Below are positions 2,192-20,217 of a stretch of DNA of 62,521 bases, in pieces. The notes beneath the pieces are model-generated. The model saw only the letters and a list, made by a program, of their open reading frames with translations. It did no database searches and was not told where the DNA came from. The DNA is from a virus (taxonomy: Duplodnaviria > Caudoviricetes), in IMG/VR virus record IMGVR_UViG_3300044691_000265, positions 1 to 62,521 of that record. The stretch is one strand, 5' to 3'. The first letter of the stretch is position 1, and each line of letters opens with the position of its first letter. The position numbers and the translations under genes are program-made.

Positions 2192-2656
2192 ATGGCAAAG
2201 CGCATGAGCTGGTACGATAAGGGTTTCAAGGAAGCGATCGACGGTCTTTTGATCGATCCGCCGATGAACCCCGGTCATTCGAGTTTCGAAAACTATTCGG
2301 CGGGTTACCGCGACGGCGAGCGCCAGAACGAGCGCGACGCATGGAAGGAAGCGGCCGAAATCGAGGCTTGCGAGCCAGTGGAAGCCGGTCCGATCGTCGA
2401 AGCGGTAACGGCTCAAATCGCCCGCGGTCCGGATTGGTCAATCATCGTTCCGGACTATGTGTATTGCTTGGCCCATGCCGCGGGTCTCGACAATATGGCG
2501 TGCCTTACGATCGCTGGCCGTGCCAAGGAAGTGCACGAACGCGATACGATGGATGTTCGCGGGACCGACCCGGCAAATCCGACGGTATGGGCGCGCGATC
2601 CGATTATCCGCAAGGCACTGCGCTTGCTGGCCGCTAACGAGCTGGGGGAGTGCTGA
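2192..2656 (+). CDS. Hypothetical early protein
   Basis: 154-aa ORF with purine-rich upstream sequence; in operon. Confidence 0.7.
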   Translation: MAKRMSWYDKGFKEAIDGLLIDPPMNPGHSSFENYSAGYRDGERQNERDAWKEAAEIEACEPVEAGPIVEAVTAQIARGPDWSIIVPDYVYCLAHAAGLDNMACLTIAGRAKEVHERDTMDVRGTDPANPTVWARDPIIRKALRLLAANELGEC

Positions 2657-2658
2657 TT

Positions 2659-2994
2659 ATGTACCCGATCGATTTCAACACCGCGACCATGGGCGATGTT
2701 ATCCGCCGTTCGATGGTCTGTCACCCGTCCGTCTTGATGGATGCTATGCGGGTGGTTGCTCGCAATCACGAGCGGTACGCGATTATCACCCATAACAAGG
2801 GCGCCAAGGTGTCGGCCGCGCGTATGGGGAAAGATGCGCGCTACGCGATCCGCATGGTTGACCAGCAGGACGTCGACGCGTTGGTCGCCAATTTCTCGGC
2901 CAAAATCCAGACGTTCGAGCAAGCCTGCCGGTTGCAGCTCGTGCCGCACGGGACGCGTGCGATCATCGCCACTCGTGAAGATGGGAGCGTCTGA
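2659..2994 (+). CDS. Hypothetical early protein
   Basis: GGGGAG RBS; tightly packed with neighbours. Confidence 0.7.
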   Translation: MYPIDFNTATMGDVIRRSMVCHPSVLMDAMRVVARNHERYAIITHNKGAKVSAARMGKDARYAIRMVDQQDVDALVANFSAKIQTFEQACRLQLVPHGTRAIIATREDGSV

Positions 2995-2996
2995 TC

Positions 2997-3185
2997 ATGG
3001 AACAAGAGCAAATCCAGGCGCGCGCGGTGCTCTGCCTGTTGCACGATATCGTCTTGGCCCTGAACCTCGACAACGTGTCGCCAGTCGAGTTGCTGGACGC
3101 GCTAGAGGGTGCCGGCCTTGCTGTCGAGACTGGTTCCACAAGCGAGGACGACTTAGCCCACATGGAGCGGGCGCGCGGCCTCTAG
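2997..3185 (+). CDS. Hypothetical acidic protein
   Basis: 62-aa ORF with GGGAG RBS. Confidence 0.65.
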   Translation: MEQEQIQARAVLCLLHDIVLALNLDNVSPVELLDALEGAGLAVETGSTSEDDLAHMERARGL

Positions 3186-3272
3186 CGCCGAACCCTACCA
3201 CCCACCAAAAGCCCGCATGGATGATCCCAGCGGGCTTAAGGCGGTACTAGACCAACCTGTGAGGCTCAGACC

Positions 3273-17442: not shown

Positions 17443-18417
17443 ATGACCGCACTGCGACGCTCGGCGACGACCGGCACATCTTCCCCGAATGATGAATATC
17501 TGCACGAGACCGATCCGCGGGCCTGGATCGACCACCACATCGCCAAGGCGGCAGCGGCCGGTCGCCCGCATGCCGTCTGCGTCCGGGTCGATCCGGCGCT
17601 GATGGCGGCGCTGCTGGAACGCAACCCGGAGCACTGGAACCGCAAACTGAGCACGAAGCTCGTCAGCCGCTGGGAAAATGTGATGCGGGACGACGCCTGG
17701 GAACTGAACGGCGAAACCGTGATCGTCGCCAAGACCGGCGAATTGAACAACGGCCAGCACCGGCTGACCGCTGGCATCCGCGCCGGCAAGCCGTTCGAGA
17801 CCTTCATCGTCTTCGGCATCGAGCGCGCGACCCGCGGATCGCTCGACCAGGGCAAGCGCCGCACGCTCGCCGACCATCTGACCATGAGCGGGTACACCAA
17901 CGTCACCATGCGCTCTAGCGCGGCGGCTGTGGTCATCGGTGTGCTGACCCGGCACGTCAATATGCTGGGCCATGGCCATATCACGCCGAACCAGGTGCTG
18001 GCTGCCCAGCAAGATCATCCCCATCTGATGGACGCGAGCGGCACCGCCCACCGCGTTCAGATGGCCTTCAAGGTCTCGGCCGCCGTGGTCATCGGCCTGC
18101 ATTATCTGTTCTCCCGGCGCAGCGAGGCCGGCGCCGACCTGTTCTTCCAGCACGCGCTGTACGGCTCCGGCATCACGGCCAAGGATGATCCGATCAACCG
18201 CCTGCAGGTGTTCCTGCGCGACCATGGCATGCGTCACCAGCGCAAGTCGCGCGCCGAACTGGTCGCGTGCACGATCAAATCGTGGAACCATTATTGGCGC
18301 GGCGAGCGCTGCGGCCCGCTGTTCTGGCGCGTCGTCGGGCGGGACGAGCCGCTGCCGATGATCGACGAGTGGGGCGAGTTCCAGGAAGCCATGCTGCAGA
18401 AGGCGCTCCGGAAATGA
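17443..18417 (+). CDS. ParB-N-like phage protein
   Basis: NR...W...NGETVIVAKTGELNNGQHRL...DQGKRRT (DGQHR-like motif). Confidence 0.65.
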   Translation: MTALRRSATTGTSSPNDEYLHETDPRAWIDHHIAKAAAAGRPHAVCVRVDPALMAALLERNPEHWNRKLSTKLVSRWENVMRDDAWELNGETVIVAKTGELNNGQHRLTAGIRAGKPFETFIVFGIERATRGSLDQGKRRTLADHLTMSGYTNVTMRSSAAAVVIGVLTRHVNMLGHGHITPNQVLAAQQDHPHLMDASGTAHRVQMAFKVSAAVVIGLHYLFSRRSEAGADLFFQHALYGSGITAKDDPINRLQVFLRDHGMRHQRKSRAELVACTIKSWNHYWRGERCGPLFWRVVGRDEPLPMIDEWGEFQEAMLQKALRK

Positions 18418-18665
18418 TCCCGCTCAAGATCGACGGGCTGTGGGCCTGGATCGCGACCGAGGATGACGGTCAGGAAGGCGTGCTGGGCCAGGCGACCAGG
18501 ATCGGCTGGCTGCCGCTGATCGGCGCCGACAAGGATCGCATCGAATCCTACCGCGACATCGCGCAGGGCATTGCCTATCTCGGCACCCATGTGCAGCTCG
18601 TCCAATTCACCACCCGGACCGATCTCGAAACCCTCACCACGACAGCCAAGGAGCACGCGTCATGA
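18414..18665 (+). CDS. Hypothetical protein
   Basis: ATGA-coupled ORF. Confidence 0.7.
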   Translation: MIPLKIDGLWAWIATEDDGQEGVLGQATRIGWLPLIGADKDRIESYRDIAQGIAYLGTHVQLVQFTTRTDLETLTTTAKEHAS

Positions 18666-19099
18666 ACTCGTCGACGATCATCTTTCTGATCAACGATCAC
18701 GCCAGGGCGCTGCTGGCGACTTACGAGGTCGACGCGGAAGGTCGGCCGGCGCCGCGCACGATCTTCAAGACGCTCGATCCTTACATCAAGGTCGGCGATT
18801 TCGTCATCGTGCCGACCGACACCCGCCATTTGATGACGGTGTGCAAGGTCGTCGAGGTCGATCACGATCTGGATATGGATACCCAGAGCGACATCAAATG
18901 GATCATCAGCAAGGTCGACACCACGGCCTACGAGCAGATCCGCGCCCAGGAAGCCGTTGCCATCGCCACCGTCAAGTCGGCCGAGAAGGCGAAGAAGCGG
19001 GCCGATCTGCGCGCGTCCGTGCTGCTCGACAGTGCCGCGGCGATCAAGGCGCTGCCGATCTCGGCGTTCGATGGCGAGGTGGCTGTCAAGACCGAATAG
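18662..19099 (+). CDS. Hypothetical phage protein (possible SH3/KOW-like domain plus helix)
   Basis: IKVGDFVIVPT...VVEVD...KWIISKVD; AGGAG RBS. Confidence 0.75.
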   Translation: MNSSTIIFLINDHARALLATYEVDAEGRPAPRTIFKTLDPYIKVGDFVIVPTDTRHLMTVCKVVEVDHDLDMDTQSDIKWIISKVDTTAYEQIRAQEAVAIATVKSAEKAKKRADLRASVLLDSAAAIKALPISAFDGEVAVKTE

Positions 19100-19102
19100 G
19101 AA

Positions 19103-19403
19103 CTCGTGGCTGTGACCTTCTGCCCTTGGTCACTAGAGGAGCAGCCACCCCGAATAGCATGCGCTATTCGGGTGACTCGCAAAGAGTCGGAACGAGCCGG
19201 GTGGAAGCGCCGACCCCGTGGTGTCTGAGGGTGTAGGGGTCGGCAGGGAAGCCCGACGAATTCGAGATTGACCGTGACCTGGTGCCCCGTCCCACAGGAG
19301 CGGTCAATATCGCGCCATGCGGCGCAGCCGACAATACACACTCGGAATATTGTCGGCTTGCTCGGACGGCGGGGATCGTGGGATAGGGCGAAGATCCCCG
19401 CCG
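19103..19403 (+). ncRNA. Highly structured intergenic RNA with two loop-loop pseudoknots; class unknown
   Basis: About nine helices of 5-11 bp with complementary loops (19224-33 with 19337-46; 19284-94 with 19379-89); G-U wobbles favour the + strand. Confidence 0.7.
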
Positions 19404-19423
19404 GATGTGCCAGGGAGACCAGG

Positions 19424-19573
19424 ATGGCGAGTTGTCCCAAATGTGCGCGCCGCCGCATCCGCAAGAGCCGTGATGGCCTGCGCTGGTGCCGGCGCTGCGG
19501 CTGCCTGCCGAATCAGAGGAAACTGCTGCGCGACGGCACGAAACGCCCGCCGGCCGAGGGAGAAAAACCATGA
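19424..19573 (+). CDS. Small zinc-ribbon protein
   Basis: CPKC...WCRRCG; GGAG RBS. Confidence 0.6.
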   Translation: MASCPKCARRRIRKSRDGLRWCRRCGCLPNQRKLLRDGTKRPPAEGEKP

Positions 19574-19863
19574 ACTGGGACACCATCATCGGTTGGACCG
19601 GATGCGCGATCACGATCGGCATCACCGGAGCAACTATCTTCAAAAGCGTCCAGTTCGATCGCTGGCATAAGCGGCATATGGCCGAGGTCGACGTGTTGCT
19701 GCGCGAACTGCGGGCGTTCGATGCGCGGATCGACAGCCACCGGCTGCGCTTCGCGCTCTTTGCCGCGATGGCGTCATCCGATGTCAGTGACGACGCCAAG
19801 AACGTGATCTCGACGGCGCTGGCGATGGCCGGCTCGGTGGATGTGGATATGGGCCATGCGTGA
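19570..19863 (+). CDS. Hypothetical membrane-anchored protein
   Basis: ATGA coupling; N-terminal hydrophobic stretch. Confidence 0.6.
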   Translation: MNWDTIIGWTGCAITIGITGATIFKSVQFDRWHKRHMAEVDVLLRELRAFDARIDSHRLRFALFAAMASSDVSDDAKNVISTALAMAGSVDVDMGHA

Positions 19864-19875
19864 TTGACGAACTGA

Positions 19876-19904
19876 TTGACGACCGGGTTCCATGTCACTA
19901 GTTT
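19876..19904 (+). promoter_or_regulatory. Sigma70-like promoter for the HTH-xis-int genes
   Basis: TTGACG-N17-TAGTTT; TGATTGACGA direct repeat (19861, 19873). Confidence 0.55.
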
Positions 19905-19947: not shown

Positions 19948-20217
19948 ATGAATGACGAACTCATGCGCCCAGAGGAACTGCGCGAAACATTGGCCGCGTT
20001 GCATTGGAAACCAACAGCCCTGTCCCGGATGCTCGGCTGTGTCCCTCGAACGGTCCAGCGCTGGCTTCGTGGCAAGTACACCGTCCCGAACGACGTCGCA
20101 GTCTGGTTGCGTCGGCTCGGTCATCTTCACGCCGGGCGCCCGGCGCCTGACAGTTGGCGCGGTCAGTCCGTCAAGATTGACCGGGCCAAACACCCCGCCC
20201 GCGATCCCAAGGAATGA
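19948..20217 (+). CDS. HTH DNA-binding protein
   Basis: LHWKPTALSRMLGCVPRTVQRWLRG. Confidence 0.75.
   Translation: MNDELMRPEELRETLAALHWKPTALSRMLGCVPRTVQRWLRGKYTVPNDVAVWLRRLGHLHAGRPAPDSWRGQSVKIDRAKHPARDPKE

What the first reader, a model, noticed from the sequence alone, without database searches (positions are those of the whole stretch)
19103..19403. Candidate new ~300-nt phage RNA with two multibranch domains and two long kissing-loop pseudoknots
Seen, in an otherwise tightly packed operon. Domain I, closed by CTCG/CGAG (19103/19196): GTGGCTG/CAGCCAC (19106/19148) enclosing GTGACC/GGTCAC; CCCGAATAGC-ATGC-GCTATTCGGG (19149-72); GACTC-GCAAA-GAGTC (19174-88). Next, GCCGACCCC/GGGGTCGGC (19209-44). 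Domain II, closed by TTCGAG/CTCGGA (19261/19366): ATTGACCG/CGGTCAAT (19267-308); GCGCC-ATGC-GGCGC (19312-25); AGCCGACAATA/TATTGTCGGCT (19326-58). Last, CGGCGGGGATC/GATCCCCGCCG (19367-403). The large loops are mutually complementary: UCUGAGGGUG (19224-33) with CACACUCGGA (19337-46), 9/10 pairs; GCCCCGUCCCA (19284-94) with UGGGAUAGGGC (19379-89), 10/11 pairs. Both domains have a central AUGC-loop hairpin. There are no U-tails, so these are not terminators, and I cannot match it to tRNA, tmRNA, introns or small ribozymes. Inferred: a compact tertiary-folded RNA (ribozyme, protein sponge/anti-defence decoy, antitermination element or RNP scaffold), possibly working with the upstream SH3/KOW-like protein (18662-19099) or the downstream zinc-ribbon protein (19424-19573).
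Basis: partly seen in the sequence, partly recalled or inferred. Interest (0 to 1): 0.88.

Follow-up and report, generated by a model that had tools for sequence, protein, structure and literature searches.

The report
Tandem kissing-loop RNA of temperate phages
The gap holds two tandem copies of an undescribed, roughly 160-base folded RNA that many temperate phages keep between the same two small genes of their early recombination operon; its fold is well supported but its job is still inferred.

Summary
Window 19099-19414 is not one 300-nt RNA but two tandem units (19099-19258, 19261-19414) of one conserved ~160-nt RNA. Each unit has four parts:
- P1: hairpin with a fixed 2x1 internal loop
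- P2: hairpin with a C-AUNC-G loop
- P3: variable hairpin
- P4: hairpin

The P1 and P4 loops of a unit pair in two segments. A model built without that loop-loop pairing found 77 matches in 98 sources, all on the gene strand. On that alignment both kissing segments are about 94% paired, with double changes in 9 of 10 pairs.

The first (19224-33 x 19337-46) and both closing helices are not conserved.

The RNA starts a median of 8 nt after a 145-aa phage gene and ends just before a small basic zinc-ribbon gene. The trio sits beside exonuclease/RecT/Erf genes and is duplicated whole in one phage.

Rfam 15 has no match. It may be listed in an automated phage RNA catalogue whose supplements I could not read. 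This scan probably met the same family before on other DNA (e1-4175844).

Function is untested. My best guess is an intercistronic protein-binding operator or RNP. No expression data were available.

The parts
18662..19099 (+). 145-aa gene ('protein A'). It has a beta-rich N-domain and a long basic C-terminal helix, and it always lies directly upstream of the RNA.
   Evidence: 62 homologues with E<=0.001 among 104 candidates. No Pfam family; PHROG 13551 of unknown function. AF2 mean pLDDT 88.7. The N-domain weakly resembles the PriA 3' DNA-binding domain: Z 6.1, rmsd 2.8 A over 65 residues; Foldseek E 0.12.
19099..19258 (+). RNA unit 1, the more diverged copy.
   Evidence: cmsearch with R1: 47.8 bits, E 1.9e-11, full model length.
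19106..19148 (+). Unit 1 P1. Outer stem 19106-12 x 19142-48. U19113-G19141 pair. Internal loop GA (19114-15) opposite A19140. Inner stem 19116-19 x 19136-39. Loop 19120-35.
   Evidence: Read; helices 1 and 2.
19149..19172 (+). Unit 1 P2: a 10-bp stem with a C-AUGC-G loop.
   Evidence: (I16).
19174..19188 (+). Unit 1 P3: variable hairpin GACTC-GCAAA-GAGTC.
   Evidence: P3 differs in sequence and length in every locus.
19209..19244 (+). Unit 1 P4: a 9-bp stem with an 18-nt loop (19218-35). The loop pairs with the unit 1 P1 loop: 19122-29 x 19225-32 and 19131-35 x 19219-23.
   Evidence: I25. Duplex energy -18.2 kcal/mol. Family helices 3-6.
19261..19414 (+). RNA unit 2, close to the family consensus.
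   Evidence: cmsearch with R1: 68.0 bits, E 3.8e-17.
19267..19308 (+). Unit 2 P1. Outer stem 19267-74 x 19301-08. U19275-G19300 pair. Internal loop GA (19276-77) opposite A19299. Inner stem 19278-81 x 19295-98. Loop 19282-94.
19312..19325 (+). Unit 2 P2: GCGCC-AUGC-GGCGC.
19326..19358 (+). Unit 2 P3: an 11-bp variable hairpin.
19367..19403 (+). Unit 2 P4: an 11-bp stem with the loop GUGGGAUAGGGCGAA (19378-92). Kissing pairs are 19284-87 x 19386-89 and 19289-94 x 19379-84.
   Evidence: I12, I19. Duplex energy -21.1 kcal/mol. Covariation.
19424..19573 (+). 49-aa basic zinc-ribbon gene (MASCPKC...CRRCG). Its SD GGGAGA lies at 19412-17 (read), after P4 and overlapping the last 3 nt of the CM match (19261-19414).
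   Evidence: Alignment A6 has four invariant Cys. The profile is nearest ribosomal protein eL43/L37ae, E 2.3e-5. 16 of 23 members match Pfam Ribosomal_L37ae below its cut-off.

Best explanation
Window 19099-19414 encodes two tandem copies of an undescribed ~160-nt structured RNA. It is read on the + strand as part of the phage's early recombination/lysogeny operon.

The fold of each copy:
- P1, a hairpin with a conserved U-G pair, a GA/A internal loop and a CCUN/N'AGG inner stem.
- P2, a hairpin of any stem sequence with a fixed C-AUNC-G loop.
- P3, a variable hairpin.
- P4, a long hairpin.
- The P1 loop (GCCC ... NNCCCA) pairs with the P4 loop (UGGGNN ... GGGC) of the same unit, giving a two-segment kissing helix of about 10 bp.

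That much is shown. I put about 0.95 on 'real conserved RNA with this fold'.

Inferred mechanism (about 0.4):
- The folded RNA fills the gap between the 145-aa gene and the zinc-ribbon gene.
- It acts there as a protein-binding operator or RNP core. The small basic zinc-ribbon protein, the 145-aa protein, or both recognise the invariant P2 loop and the P1/P4 kissing core.
- This sets how much zinc-ribbon protein, and the recombination genes behind it, is translated.
- Ribosomes ending at the 145-aa gene's stop must open the foot of P1, which would couple the two genes.
For: Fold:
- Model R1 was built from 7 sequences with P1 and P4 only. It found 77 matches at E<=0.001 in 98 sources, all on the + strand.
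- On that alignment 92.5% of cells pair, against 68.5% when shuffled (0 of 500 shuffles reach it) and 40-44% when the partners are slid.
- The two kissing helices were not in the model. They pair in 94.1% and 93.5% of cells, with double changes in 4 of 4 and 5 of 6 pairs. For example columns 48-225 read CG 40, UA 22, other 1.
- P2: 68 of 70 distinct units have C-AUNC-G. Their stems are 95.3% paired against 41.5% when permuted.

Strand:
- 230 G-U cells against 45 A-C cells.

Not coding:
- 39 of 67 units are closed in all three + frames.

Linkage to the flanking genes:
- P1 begins a median of 8 nt after the stop of the 145-aa gene, and within 15 nt in 62 of 68 loci.
- The zinc-ribbon start lies about 0-23 nt after the model's end in most loci.
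- A DNA-pattern search blind to proteins gave 21 model-positive stretches. 20 of 20 testable ones have the 145-aa gene upstream, and 17 of 21 have the zinc-ribbon gene downstream.
- Locus L071 carries the whole trio twice.
- There is no promoter-like or terminator-like site around the RNA.

Hints of RNA binding:
- The zinc-ribbon profile is nearest the rRNA-binding eL43.
- The 145-aa protein has a PriA 3'BD-like nucleic-acid-binding fold.

Specificity within a unit:
- In the window, each unit's own loop pair is the best: -18.2 and -21.1 kcal/mol, against -11 to -15 for cross pairs.
- The two adjacent units of L018 also differ in both loop segments.
Against: - No expression, processing or binding data exist for this RNA.
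- The protein similarities are weak. Z 6.1 is below the level the tool calls reliable, and the zinc-ribbon matches are generic and below Pfam cut-offs.
- The Shine-Dalgarno of the zinc-ribbon gene is not visibly sequestered by the conserved fold, so a simple occlusion switch is not evident.
- About 8 of 65 loci with enough downstream sequence have no zinc-ribbon gene after the RNA.
- L050 has a unit in front of the 145-aa gene as well.
- The window has two RNA units but one copy of each protein gene.
- Tight packing between genes is usual in phages and does not by itself show cis regulation.
Confidence: 0.4

Rival explanations
1. It is a stand-alone stable RNA cut out of the operon transcript. 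Its P1 and P4 loops pair between molecules, head to tail, to build dimers or rings. This would resemble phi29 pRNA or the quaternary kissing loops of ROOL and GOLLD. The two small proteins might be partners in recombination or anti-defence.
For: - In ROOL and GOLLD, kissing loops first read from covariation as tertiary contacts proved to be bridges between chains (PMC12286853, passages read).
- The loop 'addresses' vary freely while staying complementary.
- Adjacent units in the window and in L018 carry different addresses. That would keep two assemblies apart.
- P3 tolerates large insertions (L006), as peripheral elements of ornate RNAs do.
Against: - Covariation cannot tell pairing in cis from pairing in trans.
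- Different addresses in adjacent units are equally expected if the purpose is to avoid misfolding in cis.
- There is no own promoter or terminator.
- There are no data on a discrete RNA species.
Confidence: 0.2
2. It is a c4/CI-type antisense immunity RNA. The P4 hairpin is the antisense effector, the P1 loop is an upstream decoy copy of its target, and a further target copy near a ribosome-binding site elsewhere in the phage is silenced.
For: - The loop complementarity comes in two segments within one transcript. This recalls a'/b' with a1/b1 of P1 c4. Those details are recalled from Citron & Schuster 1990 and were not read here. The general role of c4 was seen in passages of PMC8201110.
- In the window, 20197-20209 (GCCCGCGAUCCCA) is perfectly complementary to the unit 2 P4 loop. 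It abuts the AAGGA Shine-Dalgarno of the excisionase-like ORF at 20214.
Against: - That site is at chance level: 3 matches found (one of them the loop itself) against 2.03 +/- 1.71 expected.
- One search listed 61 units. Extra + strand sites appeared with six of them. Three sites (L033, L040, L018) lie in the ~3-kb flanks of related loci. One is the P1 loop of the other unit of L071. Two are in the 62.5-kb window itself, which was scanned whole. None holds a conserved position.
- The Rfam C4 models do not match, even at E<=10.
Confidence: 0.07
3. It is a riboswitch-like sensor. The kissing core forms a ligand pocket that tunes expression of the downstream genes.
For: - About 25 near-invariant nucleotides cluster around the kissing core and the P1 internal loop.
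- It lies directly upstream of a gene.
- Occasional tandem arrangement is known for riboswitches. This last point is from general knowledge and was not checked here.
Against: - There is no expression platform: no terminator and no Shine-Dalgarno-sequestering helix.
- The downstream genes are not metabolic or transport genes.
- The RNA follows an upstream ORF within about 8 nt instead of sitting in a 5' UTR.
Confidence: 0.08
4. It is a self-cleaving ribozyme or a fixed RNase processing/stability module that separates the upstream and downstream parts of the polycistronic message.
For: - It has a conserved compact fold with invariant unpaired nucleotides.
- Its position at a gene boundary is constant.
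Against: - No known ribozyme family matches.
- A stability hairpin would not need a covarying kissing interaction or a fixed P2 loop.
- Catalysis cannot be tested here.
Confidence: 0.07
5. It is a put-like processive antitermination RNA that modifies RNA polymerase transcribing the early operon.
For: It lies in an early operon that runs on to the excisionase-like and integrase genes in the window. Precedents such as HK022 put are recalled, not read here.
Against: - It is not near the operon start.
- It is linked to two particular genes, not to promoters.
- No terminators were found downstream.
Confidence: 0.04
6. It is a DNA-level element (origin, recombination or packaging site) or a protein-coding stretch.
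For: Both strands fold well. An ORF (19268-19573) runs through unit 2.
Against: - Pairing is strand-asymmetric: 230 G-U cells against 45 A-C cells.
- The pseudoknot covaries.
- 39 of 67 units have stops in all three frames.
- Zinc-ribbon homologues start at the ATG equivalent to 19424.
Confidence: 0.02

Closest known systems
ROOL and GOLLD (large ornate RNAs of phages and prophages)
   Same: They are phage or prophage borne, of unknown function, and need no known protein partner. Their helices and kissing loops covary, and some of those kissing loops proved to be contacts between chains (PMC12286853, abstract and passages).
   Different: They are 580-800 nt or more and often lie near tRNA islands. 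This RNA is ~160 nt, sits between two protein genes of a recombination module, and gets no Rfam match to either family. Nothing here shows oligomers.
P1/P7 c4 antisense RNA (and P4 CI RNA)
   Same: A phage RNA in an early or immunity operon whose loop pairs through two short segments with a complementary pair of segments on the same transcript. The a'/b' detail is recalled. The role of c4 in ant control was seen in PMC8201110.
   Different: No Rfam C4 match. No conserved second target near a downstream ribosome-binding site. It is twice as long, with two additional hairpins.
Phage and ribosomal-protein translational operators (T4 gene 32 pseudoknot, Mu Com-mom, r-protein leaders)
   Same: A structured RNA just upstream of a small nucleic-acid-binding protein gene. 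It has an invariant loop on a stem of free sequence, as protein-recognised hairpins have. Autoregulation of gene 32 through a pseudoknot is stated in PMC10690425 (passage). Mu Com is recalled.
   Different: It is much larger and has a long-range kissing interaction. Binding by either neighbour is not shown, and the Shine-Dalgarno is not visibly occluded.
phi29 pRNA
   Same: A phage RNA of about 120-170 nt with two loops of matching, freely variable sequence that pair 'hand in hand' (recalled, not read here).
   Different: pRNA belongs to the packaging motor of phi29-like phages. This RNA lies in the early recombination operon of temperate phages and shows no sequence or structural match.
csRNAs of Fremin, Bhatt & Kyrpides 2023 (DNAVirus_X catalogue from IMG/VR)
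   Same: An automated catalogue of 8,495 novel candidate structured RNAs of 29-151 bases from IMG/VR intergenic regions (PMC10690425, passages). This window is itself an IMG/VR record.
   Different: The main text mentions no zinc-ribbon or recombination-module motif ('zinc' occurs 0 times).

Membership tests
Any Rfam 15 family | A covariance-model match at the family's gathering score. | tested here: not met
   0 matches in the whole window. At E<=10 in 18900-19600 only NiCo (17.4 bits against a gathering score of 37, - strand) and SAM-SAH (13.4 against 40).
tRNA / tmRNA | Detection by ARAGORN. | tested here: not met
   0 genes in the window.
c4/CI-type antisense immunity RNA | A match to the Rfam C4-type models. 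| tested here: not met
   No such match at E<=10.
c4/CI-type antisense immunity RNA | A further copy of the target segments at the ribosome-binding site of a downstream gene. | tested here: not met
   The window site 20197-20209 is at chance level: 3 found, 2.03 expected. One search listed 61 units, and three extra + strand sites turned up in the ~3-kb flanks of related loci (L033, L040, L018), with no common position. Targets further away in those phages were not searched.
c4/CI-type antisense immunity RNA | Processing of the effector hairpin from the operon transcript (RNase P). | not testable with these tools
   No RNA run holds the sequence.
ROOL / GOLLD ornate RNAs | A match to the family model, and a size of several hundred nucleotides. 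| tested here: not met
   No Rfam hit. The unit is ~160 nt.
ROOL / GOLLD ornate RNAs | Homo-oligomer formation through kissing loops between chains. | not testable with these tools
   Covariation cannot separate pairing in cis from pairing in trans.
The RNA family defined here (model R1) | P1 with the U-G pair, the GA/A loop and the CCUN/N'AGG inner stem. | tested here: met
   Both window units align over the full model. The columns are shown.
The RNA family defined here (model R1) | A P2 hairpin with a C-AUNC-G loop. | tested here: met
   CAUGCG is present in both window units.
The RNA family defined here (model R1) | The P1 loop is complementary to the P4 loop of the same unit in two segments. 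| tested here: met
   Unit 1 -18.2 and unit 2 -21.1 kcal/mol, the best of all loop pairs in the window. Family covariation.
The RNA family defined here (model R1) | A position between the 145-aa gene and a zinc-ribbon gene. | tested here: met
PriA 3' DNA-binding domain (for the 145-aa protein) | Fold similarity at a reliable level. | tested here: inconclusive
   Foldseek E 0.12, prob 0.99. VIA Z 6.1, rmsd 2.8 A over 65 residues, below the Z 8 the tool names as safe. Atlas feature score 0.81, a lead only.

The most novel reading that the evidence does not exclude
The RNA is a small self-addressing building block. The covarying P1 and P4 loops pair between molecules, head to tail, to form closed dimers or rings: a miniature of the ROOL/GOLLD quaternary assemblies, or a pRNA-like ring. 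This assembly, together with the 145-aa PriA-3'BD-like protein and the zinc-ribbon protein, would be a new RNP working in phage recombination or in protecting DNA ends. The tandem copies with different addresses would then make two separate assemblies.
Probability: 0.15. Interest if true: 0.85.

Novelty: new variant of a known kind. Interest (0 to 1): 0.68.

Why it matters
Few phage non-coding RNAs have a fold this well supported by comparison alone.

The fold is supported by about 70 distinct sequences with GC content from 46% to 70%. A long-range kissing interaction was recovered even though the search model did not contain it.

The RNA is locked to two uncharacterised phage proteins inside the Red/RecET-like recombination module of temperate phages. 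Named hosts include Ruegeria and Labrenzia.

If the three parts work together, this would be a new RNA-protein device in phage recombination or early gene control.

The freely re-addressable kissing loops would also be a natural, orthogonal RNA-RNA pairing module.

Even if it is only a translational operator, it gives a clean, testable handle on two protein families that have no known function.

Tried and rejected
- **Close relatives by protein or DNA:** a single-protein scan of viral contigs found nothing. blastn against the phage records found nothing.
- **Expression:** no RNA holder is listed for window 18600-19900. Read laying was not used, because only DNA contigs were on offer.
- **Complex prediction** of the 145-aa protein with the zinc-ribbon protein gave no verdict.
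- **Closing helices** around P1-P3: rejected.
- **Trans targets** of the P4 loops in the window and flanks: chance level.
- **Pattern-only hits** L111, L117, L123, L126, L127 and L134 lack the fold and the neighbouring genes, so they are chance matches.
- **A small ORF** starting at the AUG in the P2 loop: rejected. 14 of 68 loops are CAUUCG and 3 are CAUACG, and the AGGAG lies too far upstream.
- **Host repeat element:** rejected. There is one copy in the Ruegeria genome G001, and 1 of 151 genomes of its family has a match.
- **Loci the model missed:** 14 distinct loci with the 145-aa gene scored above E 0.001 with R1. 9 of them still show a P2-like C-AUNC-G hairpin at the same place. By eye a zinc-ribbon gene is visible there in most, so they look like diverged variants. 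I built no second model for them.
- **Rows left out:** L020 (gene runs off the end), and L022, L031, L070, L072, L084, L093 and L098 (the same DNA as L008, L005, L010, L011, L015, L018 and L025).
- **Papers:**
  - 10.64898/2026.09.22.753630: only the listing was seen; reading failed.
  - PMC5737381: passages.
  - PMC10690425: passages. Its supplements are closed and may list this motif.
  - PMC12286853: abstract and passages.
  - PMC8201110: passages.
- **'Not in print'** rests on Rfam and on the paper searches only.
Full report
**What is in the window.** The window is a complete 62,521-bp IMG/VR virus record with direct terminal repeats. Between the stop of a 145-aa gene (18662-19099) and the start of a 49-aa zinc-ribbon gene (19424-19573) lie 324 bases with no conserved ORF. 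The stretch folds at -157.2 kcal/mol, z = -5.0 against 100 dinucleotide shuffles. The reverse strand folds about as well (z -5.8), as perfect hairpins must. Rfam 15 gives no match at gathering score anywhere in the window. It gives only two weak chance-level matches at E<=10 in 18900-19600. ARAGORN finds nothing.

**Relatives.** The 145-aa protein has 62 homologues at E<=0.001 among 104 candidates. With their alignment (A1) I fetched 19 loci from viral contigs, 6 from bacterial genomes and MAGs and 80 from metagenomes. The named genome records are Ruegeria sp. EL01 and MAGs labelled Labrenzia, Thalassospiraceae, Kordiimonadaceae, Opitutaceae and Phycisphaerales. Reading the DNA after the gene's stop in 18 viral loci showed one plan in nearly all of them, always ahead of a gene beginning M-x-x-C-P-K-C-G:
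- a hairpin with the motif UGACCUGGUGCCC...CCCACAGGAGCGG;
- a hairpin with a CAUGCG or CAUUCG loop;
- a variable hairpin;
- a hairpin whose loop reads GUGGG...GGGCGAAG.

blastn showed that both halves of the window's gap match this single element. The window therefore has two units where most relatives have one.

**Model and covariation.**
- I aligned seven clean examples (A3) and built covariance model R1 with P1 and P4 only.
- R1 finds two full-length units in the window: 19099-19258 (47.8 bits) and 19261-19414 (68.0 bits).
- It finds 77 matches at E<=0.001 in 98 sources, every one on the strand of the 145-aa gene.
- On the resulting alignment (A5; 72 distinct rows) I counted the pairs of P1, P4 and the two loop-loop helices.
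- 92.5% of cells pair, against 68.5 +/- 0.6% after shuffling (0 of 500 shuffles reach it) and 40-44% with partners slid by 1-3 columns.
- 31 of 34 pairs show changes on both sides.
- The kissing helices were not in the model, so their signal is independent of the fitting. Helix 3 (GCCC with GGGC) is 94.1% paired, with double changes in 4 of 4 pairs. Helix 4 (six pairs) is 93.5% paired, with double changes in 5 of 6. For example CG 40 / UA 22 / other 1, and CG 41 / UA 19 / UG 2 / other 3.
- P2 was tested separately by anchoring on its loop. 68 of 70 distinct units carry C-AUNC-G (CAUGCG 50, CAUUCG 14, CAUACG 3, CAUGUG 1). Seven stem pairs of essentially free sequence are 95.3% paired, against 41.5 +/- 2.0% with partners permuted (folds).
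- P3 varies in length and sequence.
- G-U cells (230) far outnumber A-C cells (45), so the + strand is the RNA.
- 39 of 67 distinct units have stops in all three + frames.

- 'Domain II' plus the last hairpin is unit 2 (P1 19267-308, P2 19312-25, P3 19326-58, P4 19367-403).
- The pseudoknot 19284-94 x 19379-89 is exactly the family's kissing interaction.
- The other pseudoknot (19224-33 x 19337-46) pairs unit 1's P4 loop with unit 2's non-conserved P3 loop at -11.0 kcal/mol. Unit 1's own P1 loop pairs with that P4 loop at -18.2 kcal/mol (19122-29 x 19225-32 and 19131-35 x 19219-23). Unit 2's own pair scores -21.1 and the cross-unit pairs -11 to -15.
- The short helices said to close each domain are not conserved: mean best helix 3.84 bp in 68 units, against 3.79 +/- 0.10 with permuted partners.

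**Context.**
- P1 starts a median of 8 nt after the stop of the 145-aa gene, and within 15 nt in 62 of 68 distinct loci. A terminating ribosome would therefore reach the foot of P1.
- Of 65 loci with at least 200 nt after the RNA, 47 have a CxxC...CxxC ORF starting about 0-23 nt after the model's end. Ten of the 18 misses show, by eye, a Cys-rich variant that my pattern excluded. Eight have another gene.
- A search of IMG/VR by a DNA pattern from P1 alone gave 27 stretches. 21 match R1, and 20 of the 20 with enough upstream DNA encode the 145-aa protein directly upstream. 17 of 21 encode the zinc-ribbon protein downstream. The remaining pattern-only hits are chance.
- L071 carries the whole trio twice, on either side of an exonuclease gene.
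- L018 has two adjacent units whose loop sequences differ in both segments. L050 has a second unit in front of the 145-aa gene.
- The neighbours are exonuclease VIII-like, RecT-like or Erf-like genes in relatives. In the window they are an HTH regulator upstream and, downstream, an HTH protein, an excisionase-like protein and an integrase.
- No sigma-70-like promoter and no terminator flank the RNA.
- The Ruegeria genome has one copy only, and 1 of 151 genomes sampled from its family has a match. It is therefore a phage element, not a host repeat.
- Among 14 distinct loci that R1 missed, 9 still show a P2-like hairpin at the same place, so diverged variants exist.

**The two proteins.**
- The 145-aa protein models confidently (pLDDT 88.7) as a small beta domain plus a 40-residue helix.
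- Its beta domain weakly resembles the 3' DNA-binding domain of PriA: Foldseek E 0.12, prob 0.99; Z 6.1, rmsd 2.8 A over 65 residues; Atlas lead 0.81. The tool's own caveat is that Z under 8 may be only a common arrangement.
- The zinc-ribbon proteins share four invariant Cys and a very basic spacer.
- Their profile is nearest the rRNA-binding ribosomal protein eL43/L37ae (E 2.3e-5). 16 of 23 members match that Pfam family below its cut-off, alongside other generic zinc ribbons.
- These are hints of nucleic-acid binding, no more.

**How it most likely works.**

Shown:
- It is a conserved RNA on the + strand with four helices and a two-segment kissing contact within each unit.
- It has about 25 near-invariant nucleotides: the P1 internal loop and inner stem, the P2 loop and the flanks of the kissing helices.
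- It is tightly linked to two genes.

Inferred (about 0.4): the fold is an intercistronic operator or RNP core read by the zinc-ribbon protein, the 145-aa protein, or both. It sets translation of the zinc-ribbon gene and the genes behind it, and ribosome arrival at the upstream stop opens P1. The main arguments are these:
- An invariant loop on a free stem (P2) is typical of protein-recognised hairpins.
- The trio is inherited, and duplicated, as one block.

The main weaknesses are these:
- There is no visible Shine-Dalgarno occlusion.
- The protein similarities are weak.
- About 8 of 65 loci lack the zinc ribbon.
- There are no expression data.

Rivals:
- a stand-alone RNA that assembles head to tail through the same loops (0.2; ROOL and GOLLD show that covarying 'tertiary' kissing loops can be contacts between chains, PMC12286853);
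- a riboswitch (0.08);
- a ribozyme or processing module (0.07);
- a c4-like antisense RNA (0.07; the one candidate target, 20197-20209 beside the Shine-Dalgarno of ORF 20214, is at chance level);
- antitermination (0.04);
- a DNA element or coding sequence (0.02).

**Novelty.**
- No Rfam 15 family matches. Two full-text searches turned up no description.
- The automated IMG/VR catalogue of Fremin et al. 2023 (8,495 candidates of 29-151 bases; PMC10690425, passages) may hold it or pieces of it.
It shares 2 of 89 short words with unit 2 and is probably the same family. I could not see its sequence.
- I class the finding as a new variant of a known kind: a phage structured RNA with covarying kissing loops, here with a new fold and a new, fixed protein context.
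- Interest is 0.68. The fold evidence is unusually strong and the protein linkage makes the function testable. However, structured phage RNAs of unknown function are numerous, and nothing yet shows what this one does.

Noticed in passing
L071:399-3267: The whole trio (145-aa gene, RNA unit, zinc-ribbon gene) occurs twice in one phage contig, at 399-1237 and 2501-3267. The copies flank an exonuclease-like gene. Both RNA units carry the same P4 loop address, and their P1 loops differ by one base.
   Followed up: partly
window 20197-20209: GCCCGCGAUCCCA is perfectly complementary to both segments of the unit 2 P4 loop. It abuts the AAGGA Shine-Dalgarno and the ATG (20214) of an excisionase-like ORF. 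By count it is at chance level: 3 found (one of them the loop itself), 2.03 expected.
   Followed up: yes
L013:3469-3630 (also L079, L080, L085), L016/L076/L088, L036/L041, L105/L106: Diverged variants of the element lie at the same place. P2 is kept, but P1 and the P4 loops are different (for example the P1 loop AUUACUUC in L013). Model R1 misses them, so the family is wider than the model.
   Followed up: partly
L050:1-127 and 571-742: One RNA unit lies directly upstream of the 145-aa gene and another directly downstream. Their P4 loop sequences differ.
   Followed up: no
L006:3439-3632: P3 is expanded to a long extra hairpin, so R1 splits the unit into two matches. Large insertions are therefore tolerated at P3. 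This fits the earlier scan note of a 738-nt expanded form.
   Followed up: no
window 17443-18417: A 324-aa protein upstream has no Pfam family. It matches only PHROG 5931 (unknown function, E 2.7e-41). In relatives the corresponding places near the trio hold exonuclease VIII-like, RecT-like or Erf-like genes.
   Followed up: no
window 19112-19117 with 19128-19133: In unit 1 only, GUGACC can pair perfectly with GGUCAC. This competes with the conserved inner stem and with the kissing segment. It may be an alternative fold of the diverged copy, or chance.
   Followed up: no
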